Below, in pieces: positions 16,179-25,303 of a DNA stretch of 64,000 nucleotides. Where the stretch lies: NCBI GenBank assembly GCA_965235115.1, contig OZ249436.1, positions 23,066,001 through 23,130,000 on the forward strand, written 5' to 3'. Positions within the stretch are counted from its first letter, which is position 1. Every line of letters starts with the position of its first letter. The notes below the pieces were generated by a model. That model was not told the origin of the DNA. It searched no databases and saw only the letters and a program-made list of their open reading frames with translations. The stretch comes from Laetmonice hystrix. Taxonomy: Eukaryota. A program made the translations under genes and the position numbers.

Positions 16179-16799
16179 CAGATTCGCAAATTAGCGATAT
16201 TGTTTTACTTCCTATGCCAGTATCGTAACGAAGGTTGACCACAGACGAACGAACTTCGTTAAAGTTTGCCACATATTCTTGGAAAAATATTTCCTTTCAT
16301 TGATAGTAGTTGGATAGATGAAGATTGAATGGGGGTTTGGCTCCTTTGATTTTCTGTGAAAGTATTGTTATCAGGGATTTTATCAGCAAATGAATCCAAT
16401 ACTTATGTATTCGCTAAAATTGAAAGCAATCATCAAATCATATTATTTTCTTTTATTATTTCCTCATTATGAATGAAGTAGTGTAGATACGATTTGCTAG
16501 ACGTTTTCATTAGTTCTTTTAATTTGCCAATATCTTCTGGGATTTTTGACGTACTTCTGTAACATGTTTTTTGTTTGTTTATTTCCAACATATAAAGCCT
16601 GTACACGTATCCCGTAGGGATGAAGAAGTTCATAAATGAGAACTTATATAAATCCTGTATAATATTTAGTTACTGAAAATTTTAGAATAACGTTACACAA
16701 GCGTGATACTGTGGTAGTCAATAGTCAAATAATAATAGTCATAAGCATTTAAACCGAGAAACAACAACAACTTTTTAACAACTAATTATACAGTAATGT

Positions 16800-18880
16800 G
16801 ATTAATGATGATATGAGGATGATCAAAGACAGAGTTTAATTTAACTGTTTGCTTCCAGACCATTAAGAAGTTTCAGTTTCAATCTTCTTTTGAAAGTATG
16901 GATTGATGTGTTAAACTGAATAGATTGATCTTTAAGAAACTTGTTGAGAAGCTTGGGGCCCTGATAGAATACATAATTTTCCAGTCGTTTACCTCTTATG
17001 AGGGAGAGCGAATAATGATCTGTCTGTCTAGTTGTTCTCAGCATCAGTTCCCTTCTTTTATTAAAAAGATTGAAAATTGGCTCAGGAATTTATCCATGAT
17101 GTACTTTGAACATAAAGGTAGCTAAAGAATAATTATAAATCTCATTTAATGGTAGAATGTTGGCGTTAAGAAACAAAGGGTTTGTATGAGTCCTTTGAGA
17201 TTTATTAAATATTAGCCTAATTGCTCTTTTTTGTAGCTTAAACATCGAGAGACATTAAGTGACAGTTTGTTCACATTTAACCATTTCACTACCTTTTCAA
17301 GTTCTGTATTAATAATTGTTGATGGATCAATATTTTTATTGTAGCTGTAATAAAAACTGCTATCATCTGCGAAGAAAATGGGCGTCAAAATTTCCGAAAC
17401 ATCCCAGAGGTCATTTATATAAATTAAGAAAAACGGCCCAAGGACACTGCCTTGCGGCACTCCGTTAGGTAGCTAACGTTAGGTAAGATTCAATTAATTG
17501 TAGCGGTTTTCCTCGGATTCCATAGTGGTTTAATTTCAGTAGCAAGATGTCAAAGTTGACCGTGTCGAAAGCCTTCGACAAATCTAGAAATACGCCGATT
17601 GTGCGTTAGCTAGGTCATTAATTTGTAGGTTTAGTGCAAGTTCAGTTGAGTGTTTTGCACGAAATCCAAACTGTTTATCGTAGAGAATGTTATGCTTGTT
17701 AAAAAAGTTAGTAAGACGTGAGTAAATGACTTTTTCAAATACTTTAGAAAAGGTTGGAAGAAATGATATAGGTCTATAGTTTGTATACATGTGTAATCTA
17801 TCTTCATAAGCATTTGGTGTTTTAACTAATGGAAAAGATTTATCATACGTGTCAATCAAAACCGGAAGAAGATTATTGTATGCATCAGTGGAAGATTCCA
17901 TCCTTAAGATATTTGTAAAGTTATGTGAATGAACAGTTTGGATAAATTTATCTATGTTATTTTTACTTATGTCTTTTTATTTTCATGTTAGTCACTTTCT
18001 TTTGTAAACCTTCTGTGGTCACGATTAACGGATAATGGTCAGAAATATCACTCATCAGCACATAATGACTACTGATAGGCCCTACTATTATAAGAATTCG
18101 TAAAGATATTATCAATAAGTGTTTTAGAAAGGTTATGGACTCTAGTTGGTTTGTCAATAATGGGAAGGAAGCTAAATGATAAACCAGTATTTAGTAACAT
18201 TTGAGAATTCTCAGAATTGTTCTTGAGATCAATGTTGAAATCACCAAATATATGGGTAGAATATTTAGAAACTTTCTCAAGTATATAACTGAATTTTTTT
18301 AACAAAATCCTTTACATTTCCCTGTGGTGGTCTATAAATACAACATAGAACAATATCTTTTCCTATAGGACCACCTTCAAGTTTGACACATATTGATTCA
18401 ATATCATTGTCTATAATGTCGAGATGGTGACAGTAAGGTAGTCCTTCTTTCAACATAATAGTCACTCCTCCACCAATTTTCTCGGTTCTACATTTGTTGA
18501 CACTCTTAAACCCGGTTATTTTGTATAATTTCGCATTGGAGCGTTTAAGCCAGGTTTCATTTAAACAAATAGCAACCATATTAGAATTATTCTGAATCAG
18601 AAGTGTTTCTAGTTCTTTAAGATGTTTAGGTAGACTTCTGATGTTCTTATAAAGTACACGCCGTAGATATCTATACCCTTTGTGCGTGCCGTTCCATTGT
18701 TCCACTCTTCCATTAAATTATAGTAACGGTCTATATACTGAGTTGGTTGAACTTGATTATTGGAATATCAGTTAATATCTGGGTCAATTTCGTTTAAGTG
18801 TTCTACAGAATGATTAACCCAGGATGAGAAGTTAAACTCTGGCTTAAATGGATGGACAGCATTTTGTAATTTCATTTCAA
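16800..18880 (-). mobile_element. Degenerate, internally deleted CR1/L2-group LINE ORF2 (APE endonuclease + reverse transcriptase)
   Basis: Endonuclease motifs NIRSL, CLNETW, GGGV, IYRPP, GDFN, SDHYP. RT motifs NYRPIS, QFGFR, KAFDTV, PQGSVLGP, FADD, WLxxNKLSLN. Multiple frameshifts. Confidence 0.92.
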
Positions 18881-19513
18881 TTTCAGTTTCAAGCATCACT
18901 TTCTAAAACCAAGTTCACTACATTGTATTTTTCTTACACTCGTGATCTGTACAACTAGACATGACATGACACAGATTTTTGACAAAGTAAAAATTTACAA
19001 ATAATTCTGGTTTAGGGTTGACAAATAAGATGAATAGGATGAAGAAACGGTGACATGAGGAAAAAACACAAACTTAGATAGATCCAGAAGATAGTTAACA
19101 CAAATCATGTGTACAATAGTTATGAGGTGCTCTTTAGGGTAGAACATTTCTCCTAAGGATAAGTGCATACTAGACTGAAGAAATCAGTGGTTGAGTGTCC
19201 GGTTATCATAAATGGACCATAAATTGACTTCGATAGGTAACTGGACAATGAGTTCAGGAATATCCAAGTAATCATGACATCGTGTATAGTGGCGCCATGA
19301 TTATCAGACTGCAAAAATATATACATAATGTAGACTTGCTTTACATTTTAAAAATCAAAAACCAGATGGAACAATTCACTTATAGTATGCTGAATACAGA
19401 TAGGTACGTTAATGATAAATTGGAAAATGCATGTGGATTATAGACATAGTACATAGTGGCGCCATCTGGGGTGTTTTGATTTAGAGACAGAGAATAGTCA
19501 GTGCAGTGCCTAA

Positions 19514-19968
19514 GGCTGAGTTCACATAGGAGTATACGGCACGGGTATACGGGGCACGTTTTGAAGGGCACGCGAATAGCTTAAATCGTACAATAGGATC
19601 TTATAATACCGGGTCACATCAGAGGGCACTATTCGAAAAGGCGTATAGTATAGTATAGTGGGAATCGTGCGTGTTCGATTTTAGTGCAGCGTATACCGTG
19701 GGGTGCCTGTGTTTAAAAGTTCAGCATTTACACAGTTCTTGATATTTTTTAACTAAATTTTCAGATCCAAGGGCCGATATATAGGGGTATTGACTCTGAA
19801 AATTTCAAAGAAATCAGTTCAAGGGGAGGGGCAGGGGGGCACCTCTCAATTCATGTCGGGAATTAAGACACTGGCGGACGTGACTCGCCGTGCCCGTATA
19901 GCGTATAGCGAATACCGAATAGCGAATACCGTATACCGTATACCGTATACTCCTATGTGAACTCAGCC
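19514..19968. mobile_element. PIF/Harbinger MITE
   Basis: TIR GGCTGAGTTCACATAGGAGTATACGG, TAA TSD on both sides. Confidence 0.85.
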
Positions 19969-20189
19969 TAATGTAGGTCAGTTTTTTTACATTCATTAAG
20001 ATCATTCCAAGAATGTTTTTCCCGCGAAAAGTTTTAAGTTCATTAGACCAAAGGGAGCAGCGAGGTCACCGACGAGTCGAGTCGAGAACGGGATCGTCCC
20101 GTTGTAAATGTTCATGATCCCTACCATTATCTCAGGTTGCGATCTTACAGTTCAATAGTTCTGTACCAACAGCATTAGAGGCCCCTATG

Positions 20190-20810
20190 GAGAGTTGCGT
20201 GACGTCACGTTATGTTACACACCACGTGACGTTATATGTCAGGTTGTGTAGAATATGGTCGGAAACCTGACATTATGTTGCACGTCACGTGATGTGATAC
20301 GTGATGTCGAATGCCAGGTGACGTTATATGTGACGATATGCATTACGTCACATGTCACGTGACGTTACTTCACACATGACCTTACGTCACGTGACGTATG
20401 ACGTTATACGTTACGTCACACCTCACGTGACATTACAACTACGTATGCCGTTACACGATACGTCACATAACGTATTACGTCACGTCACGTATGACGTTAT
20501 ACGTTACGTCACGTGACGTATGGCGTTATATGTACGTCACACGTCACATGACGTTATACGTGACATATGACACGTTACGTCACATACGACATGACATGTT
20601 ACGACACCGCCACATGACGTTATAGGTTACGCCACACGTCACGTGGCATACATGACGTATGACGTTATAGCTTACGTCACACGTCAGGTGACGTTACACG
20701 TTACGTCACACGTCAGGTGACGTTACACGTGATGTATGACGTTATACCTTACATCACATGCCACAAGACGTTATACATTACATTATACGGCACGTTATGT
20801 TTTACGTAAC
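20190..20810. repeat. Degenerate minisatellite of TGACGTTA/TACGTCAC motifs
   Basis: Dense irregular repeats of GTGACGTTATACGT(C)AC, which resume at 21270-21307. Confidence 0.8.
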
Positions 20811-20945
20811 ATCTAATGGTCGGAATTGAAAGATCACTTATGGTTTGCTATTTATGATCAACAGTAACTTTAACCATATCGTGCACCGTTACGTTGTTAC
20901 CAACACTTCAATGGGCTTGTAATGTCAAATAAGTCGGCGTCAGTA

Positions 20946-21173
20946 CAGGTGTCAAAGGAATGGAGGTCTGCCAGAATGGAGGTCCCCAGGACCTGGATTG
21001 TCTGGTTATGCAGGTCCTAGGTCACAACTTCGTATATGACAATATAATCAAGAAATTATAAATGGATTATGAAGAAATACTTAAATAATCCTAGGAATGC
21101 AGGTCCGTCGGACTTATACAGGAATGCAGGTCGATCGGACCTGCATTTCCGACTTGGATTCCTATCACACCTG
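20946..21173. mobile_element. MITE with CAGGTGT termini
   Basis: CAGGTGTCAAAGGAAT / ATTCCTATCACACCTG inverted ends, with GAATGCAGGTC subterminal repeats. Confidence 0.6.
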
Positions 21174-21307
21174 TGGTGGAGTGAAACGTGACGAAGGCTG
21201 TCGGCGTGGTTTTAGAGGGCATTGTACTTCAATACATTTGTGTAGTACAATGTAGCATTACAGGTCCCTCTTGAGACGTCACGTAACGTTATACGTCACG
21301 TTACGTC

Positions 21308-22400
21308 TGTGGTAAAGCGCGTGTGTGTGCTGAGGCACACTGAGGGTGGAAGCAGCCGACGCTTCCCACCCCGACCACTCATAGAGAGCCGGTGGCCGGT
21401 CGGTCAGCGATAGCGCGTCTGGCGGGAAAGATAATTAATAGACAAAGAGTTTGTTTGTGTAACGTTACTTTTCTTTACTTTTACACTTTATTATTGAACG
21501 TTATGTCACATAAGATATACCTTTAGATTGCGGATTAACTCTATGTTTATTTCGGCCAGCAGTAATTTTAATATATGATGTCATGTTATTACAGTTACGA
21601 TTTTGCTACCCAAGTCGAGATTGTTCATCATCTAAAACTGAACTTTATCTTGAATTATATAAAAATGAAGAAGTCATGTTTAACCCTTTTATAATGTGTA
21701 GAAAGCTTGTCTAGAGACAAAGACATAAGTAACTTTCTTAGGTTAATGCAGACTTTGTATATGGAGTTATTTACTCTTTTGGTCACGGCAACTAACACAA
21801 CTGGTCAGCAGTCGTGTCTGGTGTTATCCAACCCAGCGGGTGCTTTCTGTAACGTCCGCGCTCCACCTATTTAACCCCGGGACCCCTTGAGACGGACAGC
21901 CAGTGCAGTCCAGTCCAGTCCAGTCCAGTTCGAGAGAGAGAGCAGAGAGAGACAGTGCGGACACTCGCCGCATCCATGCAGTCATCCAGGCAGCAGTGCG
22001 CCTAGGGAAGCAGTGCTCCCACGACTAGCAGATAGCCAGGTACAACATGAGCCGAACAATAGCCAAGCATTGGACATTAATTACCACCTACCCGGAATTA
22101 CGTATACTCATTAGGACAATACCATGCAGGACAATATATTTATTAGGACATATCCGGACAATATTGATCAGTGGAGATGCAGCGGAAGTTTGTGACACAA
22201 GAGCCGTGACCATATCTTTATAGTATTACATTCAGTCTGCTTTCAGTTGTCAATTATGTAATAGTAAATCAGCAATTATCTATTTGTATTGTATTTTCGA
22301 TCCCAAAATTAAACGTCATTATAGATTGTCACTGAAGTTTCTTTTATTATAACGGTAATTCACCCCCAACTTTAACAACCGCACTCAGGGCAATACTATA
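21308..22400 (+). mobile_element. Probable solo LTR (Gypsy-like)
   Basis: Starts TGTGGTA and ends TACTATA (CA mutated), with 4-bp TSD CGTC. TATTTAA at ~21868 and ATTAAA at ~22308. Removing it rejoins ...TACGTCACATCTAATAGTCGGAAATGAAAGATC, matching the paralog at ~20805. Confidence 0.7.
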
Positions 22401-22739
22401 CGTCACATCTAATAGTCGGAAATGAAAGATCTCATATGATTTCCTATACATTATACACACGTGTACATGTATTTTCACATGCCTACATAGCACGGAGGCC
22501 TATATAGGCTCATCTGCCGGTTCGAAAGGGACCACCGCGTCTTTTGTCGTTTTCTATGAATGTACGTAGACCTGTCTCGACGCACGGCAAGCCCCCAACC
22601 TGACTAGTTTGGGGAAAAAATAAAACGACAAACAAAACAACATCTTGTTTAAAACAGCCAATATTAATAAAATATCCAATATCTTGGTCTTGCTGAAAAC
22701 TAATACTATTTTAAAGTCAAAGATCGAAAATTGAGTCAC

Positions 22740-23084
22740 CAAGCAGCTGGGCGATGAAGCGATAATATCAAAATGTTTTGATATTATCGCTTTGCTCGGC
22801 GATGCCTTCAGGCGACAGAATAATCCCATCGCCTGGACGCCCACACTAGGGCGATGACAGAGCGATGTACCAACACGCAAGCGATGGCAGAATTGGTCCA
22901 TCGATCGCCTTAGTCTGTTCCATAAAATGCCATCGGTTTGGTCGGCGATGACCGTTGATGGTCAGGCGATGAAGTGCAAATCATCGCCCGAGCGCCCAGA
23001 CTGCGGCGATGACACAGGTGACAGCCAAGCGATGCAAAAATGGCCAAGCGATCAACATCGATCGCCCTATAGTCTGTTCCCGGC
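22740..23084. mobile_element. Harbinger-like MITE fragment truncating the NADAR domain
   Basis: GGCGATG/CATCGCC repeats. The right end TAGTCTGTTCCCGGC is followed by TTA. Confidence 0.55.
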
Positions 23085-23087
23085 TTA

Positions 23088-24137
23088 AGTGTCGTAGGTG
23101 GCCTCTACTAAGGTGGACTCGCCCGTGTTAATGAGGAAACTACGCAACTTTTCATTTTGCGAAAATTTCTGGAGGATGATGGCTTCTTTCATCACTACCT
23201 CCTGTGCCATGATGATTCAAGGGGGATTTGTAGGGGTACGGTCTCCGATTTTTTTAATTGTGAGGGCGTCGCTTTCCAGCATGATCTTTCTGGACGCAGG
23301 TTTATTTTTTGCGCATTCGGCCTTCCTGGACTGGAAACACTTCCACAGACGTGTATATCTGCCCTCCTATTGTAAATTCGCAAGGAAAGAAATTACTCAA
23401 TGGGGAGTGACGACTGTAGAAGCCGTGACGTTATCATTAATCTTGGGGGTACGCGCGGAAGACAAGTTGAGATCTGTGGGGAGCAAGTCCATATCATCAT
23501 GTTTGTACTTAATGTTGCCGAGCATAAGGGTATCACCTTGTACCCTTGCGTCAATGTGTTTGGACTTTGCATTATGTAGCTACAGCCCGGAGATCAGCTC
23601 TCTGGGCTTTCACCTGTGCTCGGAGGTCTTCGATTACATGTAGATCTACACTTTAGATCTTGACTCCCTTAAGTGTTTGACATGCTGTAGAATGAGGTCT
23701 CGCATATTGATTTGAGTAAATCTGACGATGATGGGCCGAGGTTTTCCACCCAGACTCCTTCCATACCTATGCACTTTGTCTATATCATTTTGTATGTTGT
23801 TTGGAAGGCACATTTTCTCTGTCAGCAAGCTTGTCACAACGTCGGTCAATTGTTCCCCTTCGTGTTCGTCAAGACCGTCTATTGTCACATTTTGCTTCCG
23901 AGAATAGCTCTCAAGTTGCAAAATTCGCTGTTTTGCTTGTTGAAGCTCATACGTGAGATTTTTCACCTTACGTTTTTCTTCTGATGCACCCGCCATGTCC
24001 TTGGTGTCCAAGTGTTTGTTGACATCAGCGTCTGCCATGTTGGTTGCCAAGGACGCTGCCGAAGTGGGAGTTCGTGGTGACTGACCAGTTGGAGGATTTT
24101 TGGTGTCCTGTCTCGTCCTACGACCTTTGTCACTCAT
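23088..24137 (-). pseudogene. LINE ORF1 (coiled-coil + RRM-like, L1TD1/Transposase_22 type) fused to a NADAR/YbiA-like domain; frameshifted
   Basis: ORF1 motifs LESYSRKQNVTIDGL, DIDKVHRYG, PRPIIVRF, IEDL, RVQGDTLML. Across frameshifts it continues FYSRHSPLSNFFPCEFTIGGQIYTSVE..FQSRKA...IKKIG...VMKEA..QKFSQNEKLRSFLINTGESTLVEATYD. Confidence 0.85.
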
Positions 24138-24244
24138 GCTTCTGTACTCGATCCTGATGTTCTCCAGATCTTCATATATAGTAACCAATTTAGGCCACAA
24201 TAACTTAAAGGGAATAATGACTTGGCCATGTACACCTATCACGC

Positions 24245-24665
24245 TCGTGACATCAACATCATCATAATGTTATAATTTCTTTTTGCAGACTTATCTTTAT
24301 TTTGGGGGGGGATTAATTTGAGTGGGTACTTTTAGATATTCGGTATACGGTAACTTGTTTTGTTCTTGATCTCAGCTGTTAGATTGGTACCCACGTCAAT
24401 TTGTGTTTGTAGTGCATTTTAGTGGTTTTCCAAGGAAAGCAGAGATTGAAATTATAATGAATTTTTTCATGTAATTTTGTATATATGCTGTTTGAGCAGA
24501 CTTACAATCAAATATTCCTTCCCAGTTTTCCATTTTGCAGCAGTTCTGAAATTTTTCTCGGTTTTTAGGTGTTAAATTTCTGAATGATTTTTCCATAGAC
24601 ATTTTCGTTGAAACCCTTAGGAATAACTGAAGTGGAAAATGATCTGTTATGTCATCAACCAGTAT
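24245..24665 (-). mobile_element. CR1/L2-like ORF2 fragment (end of endonuclease and linker)
   Basis: DDITDHFP...FRNLTPKNREKF...ENWEGIFDCKSAQTAY, followed by a CFP and KNKL-like segment. Confidence 0.65.
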
Positions 24666-25303
24666 GTAATTCCGGCCCTTGGATTTCCGGTTGTTCATAA
24701 ATAGGCCTACAATGTAGGCCTATGTTGTCAACGAGTGTTGGAGTGAGTTGTGTATCTCGTGGGTTTTGTAATTAATTCAGATGCTAGCAATAAATTATAG
24801 TTTGGATAGTTTGGATAGGTCAGACGCTTAACAAACGATGCTCAGACACCATTGTGGGCAGGAACATTTGGGTGCCTATTTAAAGCCGAACATACTCGAT
24901 GAAATGAAAGGGGAATATGGCCATCCTTGCTTGTTTACAGGGCCCCCTGGTGGCAACTTAGAGCAGACTTGGCATGTAGAGCCCCCTAGTGGCTGATGGG
25001 TGCTTTACGGCTGTAACATAATAACGAATTTTTTTCTGTCCCCCAAATGCTTCGTTATAACCGGACTCGACTGTATCGTCCAATTTAATATTGGTATTTT
25101 TATCCAAAAGGTTTAAATTTTGACAATACCTAGTTAACACTTTGATAAAACTCGGGTAACACTTACCTGACAAATCAGTCGCACCTGGGTCCCCACTCTT
25201 ACCAATGGAATATGGAAAAAGCTTGACTCCGAGGTTTGACCCGTCTCACCCACAGGCGGTAACCACTTTAGGTATAGGTTTTCTACTATGGTATTAGACA
25301 CCT

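What the first reader, a model, noticed from the sequence alone, without database searches (positions are those of the whole stretch)
23088..24137. LINE ORF1 fused to a NADAR (YbiA-like) domain: a retroelement that may carry an ADP-ribosylation eraser
Seen: the minus-strand ORF1 (coiled coil, ESYSRKQN..IDG, HRYG..PRPIIVRF, IEDL, VQGDTL) continues across frameshifts into FYSRHSPLSNFFPCEFTIGGQIYTSVE-FQSRKA...IKKIG...VMKEA..QKFSQNEKLRSFLINTGESTLVEATYD (23421->23088). The ORF track misses this part. Established: this is the NADAR motif order (LSNF, E.yfQ..KA, K..G, KF.QN..L...L..TG...LvEa...D.WG). NADAR enzymes are N-glycosidases, and some remove ADP-ribose from guanine in DNA. The ORF1 accessory domains I know are esterase, PHD and zinc knuckle. 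Inference: this LINE lineage may package an enzyme that reverses ADP-ribosylation of its nucleic acid or RNP, as a counter-defence. This copy is dead; a MITE cuts it just before the expected WG motif. I cannot confirm whether the fusion has been described.
Basis: partly seen in the sequence, partly recalled or inferred. Interest (0 to 1): 0.85.

Follow-up and report, generated by a model that had tools for sequence, protein, structure and literature searches.

The report
Broken LINE with NADAR-tagged ORF1
This is a decayed copy of a jumping gene (a LINE) whose RNA-coating first protein carries, in working copies elsewhere in the same genome, an enzyme domain that in other organisms strips ADP-ribose off DNA and RNA bases; the fusion is real and abundant, but it has already been noted in print for oyster elements.

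Summary
On the minus strand, an L1-type ORF1 (24137->23431) runs co-linearly into a NADAR domain (23430->23088). Both are broken by stops and two pairs of frameshifts. About 3 kb of repeat DNA then interrupts the NADAR domain. Its tail follows at 20065->19985, and APE+RT ORF2 remnants lie at 18839->16843.

Intact relatives exist in the same genome. One 450-aa frame holds coiled coil, RRM, CTD and NADAR (Pfam E 2e-35) and is followed by an APE+RT ORF2. Of 50 loci read, 36 were intact, in 19 families. At least 150 NADAR loci pass the Pfam cut-off. In public protein data, 703 50%-identity clusters match at E<=1e-30, and 150 of 158 proteins I held have both parts, ORF1 first.

The catalytic Glu/Lys/Glu are almost invariant, and NADAR is the most conserved part of the protein.

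The function, removal of ADP-ribose from nucleic-acid bases as a counter-defence, stays an inference. A 2025 paper already notes NADAR in ORF1 of oyster 'Tx1' LINEs, and this scan met the fusion before in an annelid. A new side observation: an LTR retrotransposon Pol in this genome also carries NADAR. Overall: a real feature, a member of a barely described but known kind, of moderate interest.

The parts
16565..24275 (-). Whole decayed LINE copy, including a nested insertion of about 3 kb. The 5' limit is approximate.
   Evidence: tblastn of an intact relative's ORF1 and ORF2. DNA similarity to sister fragments starts at query positions 26-99 of window:23079-24300:-. The 3' end was set by comparing the 3' UTR with the intact copy L011.
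23431..24137 (-). ORF1 start (ATG at 24137), a short coiled coil, then L1-type RRM and CTD. Broken by TAG at 23645-23643 and by frameshifts near 23635 and 23575.
   Evidence: Pfam Transposase_22 is sub-threshold at 16.9 bits. The model of the intact relative matches the human L1 ORF1p trimer 2yko (E 3.8e-7, TM 0.71).
23088..23430 (-). NADAR domain, first three quarters, in three pieces: 23305-23430, 23220-23366 and 23088-23216. Frameshifts lie near 23425 and 23340, and TGA replaces the conserved Trp codon at 23219-23217.
   Evidence: Family profile hits at E 8.8e-13, 1.5e-8 and 2.1e-12, co-linear. Pfam NADAR E 4.6e-7 for the last piece.
20073..23087 (.). Inserted, unrelated repeat DNA that splits the NADAR domain. 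It includes a dispersed repeat (22560-23090) and a palindromic ACGTCACGTGACGT-type satellite (20197-20830). The low boundary is approximate.
   Evidence: The gap in the tblastn alignment falls between aa 417 and 420. The repeat 22560-23090 has 61 matches in the genome, and about 10 near-full-length copies end at query position 525-531. Repeat families are listed.
19985..20065 (-). C-terminal tail of the NADAR domain and end of ORF1 (CSLWSNELKTFRGKNILGMILMNV...). The WG motif is degraded and the stop codon is lost.
   Evidence: tblastn aa 420-446, 66.7% identity. Family profile positions 125-151, E 0.0078. Sequence.
16843..18839 (-). ORF2 remnants: APE endonuclease and reverse transcriptase, in several frames, with internal deletions (aa 393-596 and 811-914 of the relative are not matched).
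   Evidence: tblastn pieces at 37-63% identity, E 1.75e-83 to 2.5e-39.
16565..16842 (-). 3' UTR with a stem-loop motif shared with the intact family (AAGTTCT...AGAACTT, then CTTCATC) and an A-rich tail.
   Evidence: Direct comparison (window) (L011 3' end). The alignment was made by eye.

Best explanation
Window 24275->16565 (minus strand) is an old, dead copy of an APE-type LINE. Its ORF1 protein is an L1-type (type II) RNA-coating protein: coiled coil, RRM and CTD, with a YbiA-type NADAR N-glycosidase domain fused in frame to its C-terminus. In working copies elsewhere in this genome the 450-aa ORF1-NADAR protein most likely trimerises through its coiled coil and coats the element's own RNA. 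That would bring three NADAR active sites per trimer to the RNP and to the site of target-primed reverse transcription.

The most likely job of NADAR there is to hydrolyse ADP-ribose from guanine or cytosine bases of the template RNA, the new cDNA or the nicked target. This would undo a host (or microbial) nucleic-acid ADP-ribosyltransferase that would otherwise block reverse transcription.

Shown: the architecture, copy number, intactness, purifying selection, conserved catalytic residues and predicted folds.

Inferred: trimer formation, catalysis, the substrate, and the counter-defence role.

My odds: about 0.97 that it is a LINE with a true ORF1-NADAR fusion, about 0.8 that the domain is an active hydrolase, and about 0.4 that its substrate is base-linked ADP-ribose on nucleic acid. 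The single confidence given (0.45) is for the whole statement, mechanism included.
For: Architecture:
- Intact ORF1 of 450/451 aa has NADAR (PF08719, E 2.2e-35, 122.8 bits, profile 9-163 of 163). A 1050-codon ORF2 with Exo_endo_phos and RVT_1 follows 415 bp downstream.
- ORF2 lies downstream on the same strand in 25 of 30 loci. One of these, L029, has an internal deletion.
- 36 of 50 loci hold an open full-length ORF1-NADAR, in 19 groups at 97% aa identity. Identity between groups is at most 62%.
- Several groups have 2-4 near-identical copies.

Abundance:
- The own-genome search gave 95 matches at E<=1e-10 from 94 scored of 944 candidates. By my count of that table, 74 have no stop inside the match.
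- All 150 scored of 741 candidates pass the Pfam NADAR cut-off.
- In public data, 17677 representatives match at E<=1e-3, 4274 at 1e-10 and 703 at 1e-30.
- 150 of the 158 proteins held have both segments, with ORF1 first in 150 of 150.

Selection:
- Between families, NADAR pN is 0.19-0.28 against pS 0.70-0.95.
- Where dS is not saturated, dN/dS is 0.09-0.13, similar to RRM+CTD at 0.05-0.10.
- NADAR is the most conserved block, with mean top-residue frequency 0.453 against 0.39-0.41 for RRM/CTD.

Catalytic residues, mapped on 8bau (alignment) with the residue roles of PMC11543638 section 12:
- E43 = E329, kept in 151 of 151.
- K50 = K336, K in 123 plus R in 21 of 151.
- E125 = E409, kept in 147 of 151, the other 4 being gaps.
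- W89 = W373, kept in 144.
- D130 = D413, kept in 121.
- W133 = W416, kept in 139.
- E329, K388, E409 and G439 are invariant in the 100-row alignment.

Fold:
- The AF2 model has pLDDT 90.1 and pTM 0.78.
- Foldseek matches are 8bau (E 1.4e-11, TM 0.73), YbiA 2b3w (TM 0.75) and the human L1 ORF1p trimer 2yko (E 3.8e-7, TM 0.71).

Trimer test:
- Residues 60-300 in three copies scored 0.77 against a best control of 0.57.
- The runs agree in at least 88% of contacts, partner pLDDT is at least 82, and the contacts follow a heptad pattern at 60-145.
- The mark was reached by 21 of 30 solved one-chain pairs and 0 of 23 single chains in the tool's calibration.
- The pass may come from memory of the solved L1 ORF1p trimer.

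Chemistry from papers (passages read):
- NADAR and YbiA-type enzymes, including a eukaryotic and a sponge one, remove ADP-ribose from G, and NADAR/YbiA types also from C, in ssDNA and ssRNA (PMC11543638, PMC11125620, PMC12945103).
- Guanine-N2 DNA ADP-ribosylating activity occurs in six edible clams, including CARP-1 (PMC11209040).
- NADAR sits in polyproteins of annelid/bivalve picornaviruses and of an oyster nidovirus. There it is proposed to counter host macromolecular ADP-ribosylation (PMC9503650, PMC12377751).

Convergence: an LTR retrotransposon Pol in this genome also carries NADAR, between protease and RT.
Against: - No enzyme assay exists for any ORF1-NADAR.
- No nucleic-acid ADP-ribosyltransferase was found or properly searched for in this genome. 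The one Pfam family tried rang nowhere, not even in the controls, so it is uninformative. I do not know that this host is a clam-like animal with CARP-1.
- Three ADP-ribose contacts of the solved eukaryotic NADAR are not kept: R79 -> D363, Y84 -> R368 and R93 -> Q377. Columns 363 and 364 are variable. The ligand or its binding mode may therefore differ.
- NADAR enzymes also cut N-glycosidic bonds in riboflavin intermediates (PMC11543638 introduction). They have also been proposed to act on soluble ADP-ribose derivatives and RNA-repair by-products (PMC9503650).
- The window copy itself is dead and belongs to a rare subfamily. Only one other partial copy, at 85-91% identity, was found.
Confidence: 0.45

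Rival explanations
1. The NADAR domain is an active hydrolase, but its substrate is not base-linked ADP-ribose on the element's nucleic acid. It would instead act on soluble ADP-ribose derivatives (immune signals), on by-products of RNA end repair, or on another N-glycosidic adduct of RNA. It would help the RNP survive or process its RNA.
For: The catalytic residues are conserved, which fits any hydrolytic role. PMC9503650 (passages) proposes soluble ADPr derivatives and RNA-repair by-products as NADAR substrates. PMC12477816 suggests processing of RNA intermediates of transposition. Three ADPr contacts of 8bau are not kept. A nematode trans-splicing factor is reported to hold NADAR domains (PMC9303266, search listing only).
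Against: Every NADAR subfamily tested so far in vitro removes guanine-linked ADP-ribose from DNA or RNA (PMC11125620, PMC12945103). Fusion to an RNA-coating protein places the enzyme on nucleic acid rather than in solution.
Confidence: 0.25
2. The NADAR fold is kept as a non-catalytic nucleic-acid- or nucleotide-binding module of ORF1p.
For: Earlier notes of this scan (e1-7350017, e1-7350018, not checked here) describe LINE ORF1 NADAR-fold domains in other genomes whose catalytic residues are replaced. The Pol NADAR of L075 has His in place of the last-strand Glu.
Against: In this family E329 is kept in 151 of 151, E409 in 147 of 151 (the rest gaps) and K336 as K or R in 144 of 151. Such invariance of the residues shown by mutagenesis to matter (PMC11543638 section 12) is hard to explain without catalysis. 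His at that position is also the state of active phage NADARs (PMC11125620).
Confidence: 0.07
3. ORF1 and NADAR are juxtaposed by chance in this window, or the ORF1-NADAR genes are host genes rather than parts of a mobile element.
For: In the window itself the two parts are linked only across stops and frameshifts.
Against: There is one open frame in 36 of 50 loci. ORF2 APE/RT lies downstream in 25 of 30 loci. Near-identical dispersed copies on different contigs share 5.3-5.6 kb at 99.4-99.7% identity. The order is ORF1 then NADAR in 150 of 150 public proteins.
Confidence: 0.01
4. The domain does housekeeping metabolism, as bacterial and plant YbiA does: it clears reactive riboflavin-pathway intermediates.
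For: It has the YbiA-type Glu in the last strand. That activity is known for bacterial and plant NADARs (PMC11543638 introduction).
Against: A metabolic clean-up enzyme has no evident benefit to a retrotransposon. It would not be expected to stay fused to an RNA-binding protein under selection in 19 or more families here and in hundreds of clusters elsewhere. Animals do not make riboflavin (my own knowledge).
Confidence: 0.02

Closest known systems
ORF1 proteins of 'Tx1' LINE families of Crassostrea gigas in Repbase, reported to carry YbiA-family NADAR domains (PMC12477816, Genome Biol 2025; passages and the Fig. S2 legend read)
   Same: The same kind of fusion: a LINE ORF1 with a YbiA-type NADAR domain in an invertebrate. 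That paper also states that the role is unknown.
   Different: I could not see the Repbase sequences, so identity of family or clade is untested. The ORF2 here has no zf-RVT or Cys-rich C-terminal hit, and the intact copy ends in a (TC)n-like tail after a 3' stem-loop. By recall these look more like CR1/L2-type than L1/Tx1-type elements. That paper gives no counts, no catalytic-residue analysis and no structure.
Human LINE-1 ORF1p (type II ORF1p; PDB 2yko, 2ykp, 2ldy, 2w7a)
   Same: Coiled coil, RRM and CTD in the same order. The predicted fold matches (E 3.8e-7, TM 0.71). A predicted trimer forms through heptad contacts. An APE+RT ORF2 follows.
   Different: Sequence identity is 18-19%, and Pfam Transposase_22 is only sub-threshold (16.9-20.4 bits against 22.4). 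L1 ORF1p has no enzyme domain. Type II ORF1 also occurs in CR1, L2 and R1 clades (PMC4120745 passages), so it does not place the element in L1.
Phytophthora nicotianae NADAR (PDB 8bau) and E. coli YbiA (PDB 2b3w)
   Same: Sequence match at E 1e-16 and 5e-12. Fold TM 0.73 and 0.75. Glu/Lys/Glu, the D..W motif and the Trp are kept. The last-strand residue is Glu, which defines the YbiA type.
   Different: Those are free-standing enzymes. Here the domain is the C-terminus of a retrotransposon RNA-binding protein. R79, Y84 and R93 of 8bau are not kept.
NADAR at the N-terminus of Pol in one Gypsy lineage of Ectocarpus (PMC12477816)
   Same: A retroelement that has captured a YbiA-family NADAR domain.
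   Different: A different element class, host and position. In the present genome an LTR-element Pol also has NADAR, but between protease and RT.
Esterase-bearing (type IV) and PHD-bearing ORF1 of CR1/L2 LINEs (PMC4120745)
   Same: An accessory domain grafted onto LINE ORF1. ORF1 evolution is modular.
   Different: The fold and chemistry differ. NADAR is not among the ORF1 domains listed in the passages of that paper that I read.
Macro and NADAR domains in polyproteins of invertebrate RNA viruses, and phage NADAR / DarG antitoxin mimics (PMC9503650, PMC12377751, PMC11825919)
   Same: A genetic parasite carries an ADP-ribose-removing domain. A proposed or shown role is reversal of host ADP-ribosylation.
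   Different: Those are viruses and phages. For PMC11825919 I saw only the search listing. No transferase partner is known for the LINE case.

Membership tests
NADAR superfamily (Pfam PF08719), YbiA type | Profile match above the curated cut-off | tested here: met
   The intact relative scores 122.8 bits against a 35.1 cut-off, E 2.2e-35, covering profile 9-163 of 163. All 150 scored loci in the genome are over the cut-off. The window copy alone has only a 43-aa piece at 30.7 bits, but four co-linear pieces hit a family profile.
NADAR superfamily (Pfam PF08719), YbiA type | YbiA-like alpha+beta fold (helical core flanked by two small sheets) | tested here: met
   The AF2 model has pLDDT 90.1. 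Foldseek gives 8bau at TM 0.73 and 2b3w at TM 0.75. This is a predicted, not a solved, structure.
NADAR superfamily (Pfam PF08719), YbiA type | Catalytic Glu and Lys of the core and Glu in the last strand (E43, K50, E125 of P. nicotianae NADAR) | tested here: met
   E329 in 151 of 151, K336 as K/R in 144 of 151, E409 in 147 of 151. The window copy keeps the three codons (TSVE, RKA, LVEA) but has TGA at the conserved Trp.
NADAR superfamily (Pfam PF08719), YbiA type | N-glycosidase / de-ADP-ribosylase activity | not testable with these tools
   Needs a biochemical assay.
Type II (L1-like) LINE ORF1p | Coiled coil followed by one RRM and a CTD | tested here: met
   The model has a helix at 67-145, then alpha/beta domains at 149-300. 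It matches the L1 ORF1p trimer 2yko at E 3.8e-7 and TM 0.71 over 190 columns.
Type II (L1-like) LINE ORF1p | Pfam Transposase_22 (PF02994) above the cut-off | tested here: not met
   16.9 bits (window ORF1) and 20.4 bits (P0001) against a cut-off of 22.4. No hit at E<=0.01 for the L011 ORF1. Membership therefore rests on the predicted fold, not on the sequence profile.
Type II (L1-like) LINE ORF1p | Homotrimer through the coiled coil | tested here: inconclusive
   The prediction passes the mark (0.77 against a best control of 0.57). The pass may reflect memory of the solved L1 ORF1p trimer, and it is not a measurement.
Autonomous APE-type LINE | ORF2 with apurinic-type endonuclease and reverse transcriptase downstream of ORF1 | tested here: met
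   Exo_endo_phos E 5.3e-6 and RVT_1 E 1.7e-31 in a 1050-codon frame. Present in 25 of 30 loci. Remnants in the window lie at 18839->16843.
Tx1 / L1 clade of LINEs (the label given in print to the oyster elements) | RT-based phylogenetic placement with reference elements (RTclass1 / Repbase) | not testable with these tools
   No named LINE references were available. The 120 listed ORF2 relatives carry no clade names. PDB matches to L1 ORF2p and to R2 are equally weak, at E 4e-9 to 4e-8.
Tx1 / L1 clade of LINEs (the label given in print to the oyster elements) | Cys-His motif / zf-RVT region at the ORF2 C-terminus and an A-rich or target-derived 3' end (features recalled, not from a call) | tested here: not met
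   No zf-RVT or other C-terminal family in ORF2. No Cys-rich motif is visible in the last 150 residues. The L011 copy ends in a (TC)n-like tail with no TC repeat at its 5' flank.
DarT1-NADAR (DarTG1) toxin-antitoxin | NADAR encoded next to a DarT1 transferase; Asp in place of the last-strand Glu | tested here: not met
   The neighbour is an APE+RT ORF2, not a transferase. The last-strand residue is Glu. The domain may work like the antitoxin enzyme, but it is not a member of that system.

The most novel reading that the evidence does not exclude
Retroelements of two unrelated classes (LINEs through ORF1, LTR elements through Pol) and RNA viruses of the same kinds of marine invertebrates have each taken up a NADAR hydrolase. 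[quoted passage not shown] ORF1-NADAR would then be the first transposon-borne eraser of a nucleic-acid modification. It would also point to an unrecognised eukaryotic analogue of the bacterial DarT/NADAR conflict.
Probability: 0.3. Interest if true: 0.8.

Novelty: new member of a known kind. Interest (0 to 1): 0.45.

Why it matters
If the NADAR domain really strips ADP-ribose from RNA or DNA bases on the LINE particle, it would be a transposon-encoded counter-measure. It would point to a host defence, base ADP-ribosylation of parasite nucleic acids, that so far has been shown as immunity only in bacteria.

The family is very large: at least 150 loci here and hundreds of clusters in public data. 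It is intact, so natural proteins are at hand for a direct assay. The parallel presence of NADAR in an LTR-element Pol of the same genome, and in RNA viruses of bivalves and annelids, makes the question sharper.

The window copy itself is an ordinary dead relic, and the fusion as such is already in print.

Tried and rejected
- Pfam on the small window pieces: only one of the three NADAR pieces hit. A family profile replaced this test.
- Naming the LINE clade from relatives' names: the 120 listed ORF2 relatives bear no clade names. PDB gives equally weak L1 and R2 matches. A look-up of earlier notes by ORF2 sequence found nothing. The clade is left open.
- Host transferase: Pfam Enterotoxin_a (PF01375) gave no match in the genome and none in the 14 control genomes, so it is uninformative. 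No other ART family was tried because I had no tested accession for pierisin/CARP-1-type enzymes.
- Expression: no RNA holder listed. The four runs listed belong to one study and sample and are kept as contigs. No reads were laid.
- Within-family dN/dS: copies differ by 0-4 changes per domain, too few to say anything. Between families dS is saturated in 17 of the 24 pair-by-domain comparisons, so only pN against pS and the seven finite ratios are quoted.
- NADAR tree: the careful search did not finish, and only the quick tree (SH-aLRT, midpoint root, no true outgroup) was seen. It puts 18 of 19 own-genome families in one clade (support 99). It leaves the LTR-Pol NADAR unresolved outside that clade, so neither a donor nor the number of captures can be stated.
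The copy analysis therefore rests on 50 of the 95 listed places.
- First alignment run timed out and was repeated with faster settings.
- 'MITE' label: no terminal inverted repeat spans the insertion. Only the repeat nature of its end was confirmed.
Full report
WHAT IS IN THE WINDOW

The minus strand between about 24275 and 16565 is one decayed LINE. ORF1 starts at the ATG at 24137 and reads through a short coiled coil, the ESYSRKQN...IDG and HRYG...PRPIIVRF motifs, and on to ...RSKV. Reading the sequence against an intact relative shows:
- TAG at 23645-23643
- a pair of frameshifts near 23635 and 23575
- a second pair near 23425 and 23340
- TGA at 23219-23217 in place of a conserved Trp codon
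- TAA at 23087-23085, where foreign DNA begins

tblastn with the ORF1 and ORF2 of an intact relative gives:
- ORF1 aa 115-417 at 23993->23079 (49.8% identity, E 4.6e-83)
- ORF1 aa 420-446 at 20059->19985 (66.7% identity)
- ORF2 pieces from 18839 to 16853 (37-63% identity), with two internal deletions

The 3' UTR shares a stem-loop motif with the intact family and ends in an A-rich run near 16565 (compared by eye).

TESTING THE NADAR CALL

Pfam sees NADAR in only one of the three window pieces: 23085-23216, E 4.6e-7, 30.7 bits, below the 35.1 cut-off. I therefore built a profile from the NADAR part of 150 public ORF1-NADAR proteins and ran it over all 2218 six-frame pieces of the window. The four best hits are the three pieces at 23430->23088 and the tail at 20065->19817. 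They cover profile positions 7-34, 35-73, 81-118 and 125-151 in that order, with E from 8.8e-13 to 0.0078.

THE INSERTION

About 3 kb (23087->20073) splits the domain just before the WG motif. The part next to the break (22560-23090) is a dispersed repeat with 61 matches in the genome. About ten near-full-length copies end at the same position as the break. Further in lies a palindromic ACGTCACGTGACGT-type satellite at 20197-20830. No terminal inverted repeats spanning the insertion were found, so 'MITE' is not shown.

INTACT RELATIVES

The genome held for this window (627 Mb, 35 contigs) has many intact copies. L011 (G000:C11) carries:
- a 451-aa ORF1 with NADAR at residues 306-450 (PF08719, E 2.2e-35)
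- 415 bp downstream, a 1050-codon ORF2 with Exo_endo_phos and RVT_1

Copies on three contigs share 5.3-5.6 kb at 99.4-99.7% identity, so the family moved recently.

The protein search of the genome gave 95 matches at E<=1e-10 from 94 scored of 944 candidates. By my count, 74 have no stop inside the match. The Pfam NADAR search gave 150 of 150 scored (741 candidates) above the cut-off.

Of the first 30 loci, 25 have ORF2 downstream on the same strand. The five without are:
- L017, L019 and L043
- L030, whose ORF2 pieces lie on the other strand
- the window itself, where ORF2 lies beyond the insertion

Of 50 loci read in full, 36 hold an open, full-length ORF1-NADAR. They fall into 19 groups at 97% identity, and the groups share at most 62% identity. 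A further 20 places could not be fetched.

The window's own subfamily is rare. Only one other partial copy, at 85-91% identity, was found.

BEYOND THIS GENOME

An exhaustive search of 1.84 billion cluster representatives found 17677 matches at E<=1e-3, 4274 at 1e-10 and 703 at 1e-30. Of the 158 proteins I then held, 150 contain both an ORF1 (RRM/CTD) segment and a NADAR segment, always in that order. The eight others are fragments, proteins in which only the NADAR segment was detected, or multi-NADAR proteins. The protein atlas lists NADAR clusters of 415-489 aa whose few recorded taxa are annelids.

SELECTION AND ACTIVE SITE

I mapped the alignment to the solved Phytophthora NADAR (8bau) onto the residue roles given in PMC11543638, section 12 (read in full). 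The chain numbering is the paper's plus 2. This gives:
- E43 = E329
- K50 = K336
- K75 = K359
- W89 = W373
- E125 = E409
- D130 = D413
- W133 = W416

In 151 aligned family members:
- E329 is kept in 151
- K336 is K in 123 and R in 21
- E409 is kept in 147, with 4 gaps
- W373 is kept in 144
- D413 is kept in 121
- W416 is kept in 139

A 100-row alignment has E329, K388, E409 and G439 invariant. The last-strand Glu marks the YbiA type (PMC11125620 passages).

Three ligand contacts of 8bau are not kept: R79 -> D363, Y84 -> R368, R93 -> Q377.

NADAR is the most conserved block of the protein. Between families, NADAR pN is 0.19-0.28 against pS 0.70-0.95. The finite dN/dS values are 0.09-0.13, comparable to RRM+CTD at 0.05-0.10. 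Within families there are too few differences to use.

STRUCTURE

AlphaFold2 on the 100-row alignment gives pLDDT 90.1 and pTM 0.78, with a disordered N-terminus (1-50), a long helix (67-145), two alpha/beta domains, and the NADAR domain. Foldseek against the PDB returns:
- 8bau (E 1.4e-11, TM 0.73)
- YbiA 2b3w (TM 0.75)
- the human LINE-1 ORF1p trimer 2yko (E 3.8e-7, TM 0.71)

ORF1 is therefore type II by predicted fold, although Pfam Transposase_22 stays under its cut-off.

A three-copy prediction of residues 60-300 scored 0.77 against a best control of 0.57, with heptad-spaced contacts. At least 88% of contacts are shared between runs, and partner pLDDT is at least 82. The mark was reached by 21 of 30 solved one-chain pairs and 0 of 23 single chains in the tool's calibration. 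Since an L1 ORF1p trimer is solved, the pass may come from memory.

MECHANISM

By analogy with L1 ORF1p, the protein should coat its own RNA as a trimer, which would tether NADAR to the RNP.

Papers (passages read) show that NADAR and YbiA-type enzymes, including an oomycete and a sponge enzyme, remove ADP-ribose from guanine, and NADAR/YbiA types also from cytosine, in ssDNA and ssRNA (PMC11543638, PMC11125620, PMC12945103).

Guanine-N2 DNA ADP-ribosylating activity was found in six edible clams, and CARP-1 lacks a receptor-binding domain (PMC11209040).

NADAR occurs in polyproteins of annelid/bivalve picornaviruses and in an oyster nidovirus. It is proposed there to counter host macromolecular ADP-ribosylation (PMC9503650, PMC12377751).

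The most economical reading is that ORF1-NADAR erases base-linked ADP-ribose from template RNA, cDNA or target DNA. This remains an inference:
- nothing here tests activity
- I found no host transferase (the one family tried was uninformative)
- I do not know what animal this genome is from

WHAT IS KNOWN ALREADY

I ran four searches for NADAR in LINEs:
- NADAR + retrotransposon: 140 papers, 20 listed, mostly hits on an author name
- NADAR + ORF1: 56 papers, 15 listed
- DUF1768 + non-LTR: 0 papers
- 'NADAR domain' + LINE as whole words: 12 papers, all listed

Among the papers listed, only PMC12477816 makes the link. [quoted passage not shown] S2 legend).

The passages I read from the surveys of ORF1 domains (PMC4120745, PMC5203782) and of bivalve LINEs (PMC10294476; NADAR occurs 0 times in its main text) do not mention it.

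This scan also met the fusion before, in an annelid genome, with the same prior art (e1-7275890). I had found the paper independently.

CLADE

Type II ORF1 occurs in L1, CR1, L2 and R1 clades (PMC4120745), so it does not settle the clade. The ORF2 here lacks any C-terminal zinc-finger family. The intact copy ends in a (TC)n-like tail after a conserved 3' stem-loop, with no TC repeat on its 5' flank. By recall these are CR1/L2-like rather than Tx1-like traits, but I had no named references to test this.

SIDE FINDING

Two NADAR matches lie in open frames of 1660 and 1649 aa. The one 46 kb upstream of the window (L075) is an LTR-retrotransposon-type Pol with the order aspartic protease - NADAR (E 7.9e-30) - RT - RNase H, preceded by a gag-like frame. 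Its NADAR is 40% identical to the LINE one and has His where the LINE family has the last-strand Glu. That is the state reported for phage NADARs (PMC11125620). The quick tree leaves its origin open.

VERDICT

The window copy is a dead member of a very large, active and selected family. The fusion is already in print in one paragraph, so I rate it a new member of a known kind, with interest 0.45. The open and testable question is what the NADAR domain does for the element.

Noticed in passing
L075 = G000:C1:23017300-23022800 (46 kb upstream of the window); a second match at G000:C8:28856722-28857147: LTR-retrotransposon-type Pol with a NADAR domain between the aspartic protease and the RT (Asp_protease_2, NADAR E 7.9e-30, RVT_1, RT_RNaseH). 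The last-strand Glu is replaced by His. Two retroelement classes therefore carry NADAR in one genome.
   Followed up: partly
P0013 (4240 aa) and P0016 (1075 aa): Public proteins with 7 and 5 tandem NADAR domains and no ORF1 segment. In the quick tree their domains group among LINE ORF1 NADARs.
   Followed up: no
window 20197-20830: Irregular satellite of palindromic ACGTCACGTGACGT / TGACGTTATACGTTACGTCA units, with periods of 12, 17, 24 and 29 nt. Each unit joins a CACGTG and a TGACGT motif. It lies inside the DNA inserted into the LINE.
   Followed up: no
window 22560-23090: Dispersed repeat with internal direct repeats of about 155 bp (CATCGCC... units). There are 61 matches in the genome, with about ten near-full-length copies at 89-96% identity. 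Its end abuts the NADAR break.
   Followed up: partly
window 24388-24713 (minus strand): Fragment of another LINE ORF2 (endonuclease end and linker, aa 287-395 of the L011 ORF2, 28-41% identity) directly upstream of the ORF1 start.
   Followed up: no
L011 6480-6592 and window 16565-16660: A 3' UTR stem-loop (AAGTTCT..AGAACTT followed by CTTCATC) is conserved between families that share only about 50% protein identity. The intact copy ends in a (TC)n-like tail and the window copy in an A-rich tail.
   Followed up: partly
L011 300-971 and 6593-6650: The intact L011 copy sits inside a tandem array whose units contain GCTAATTAGGCTAATTACACTAAT. The same motif flanks both ends.
   Followed up: no
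window 19894-19950: A (CCGTATA)n microsatellite of 8 copies between the ORF1 tail and the ORF2 remnants.
   Followed up: no
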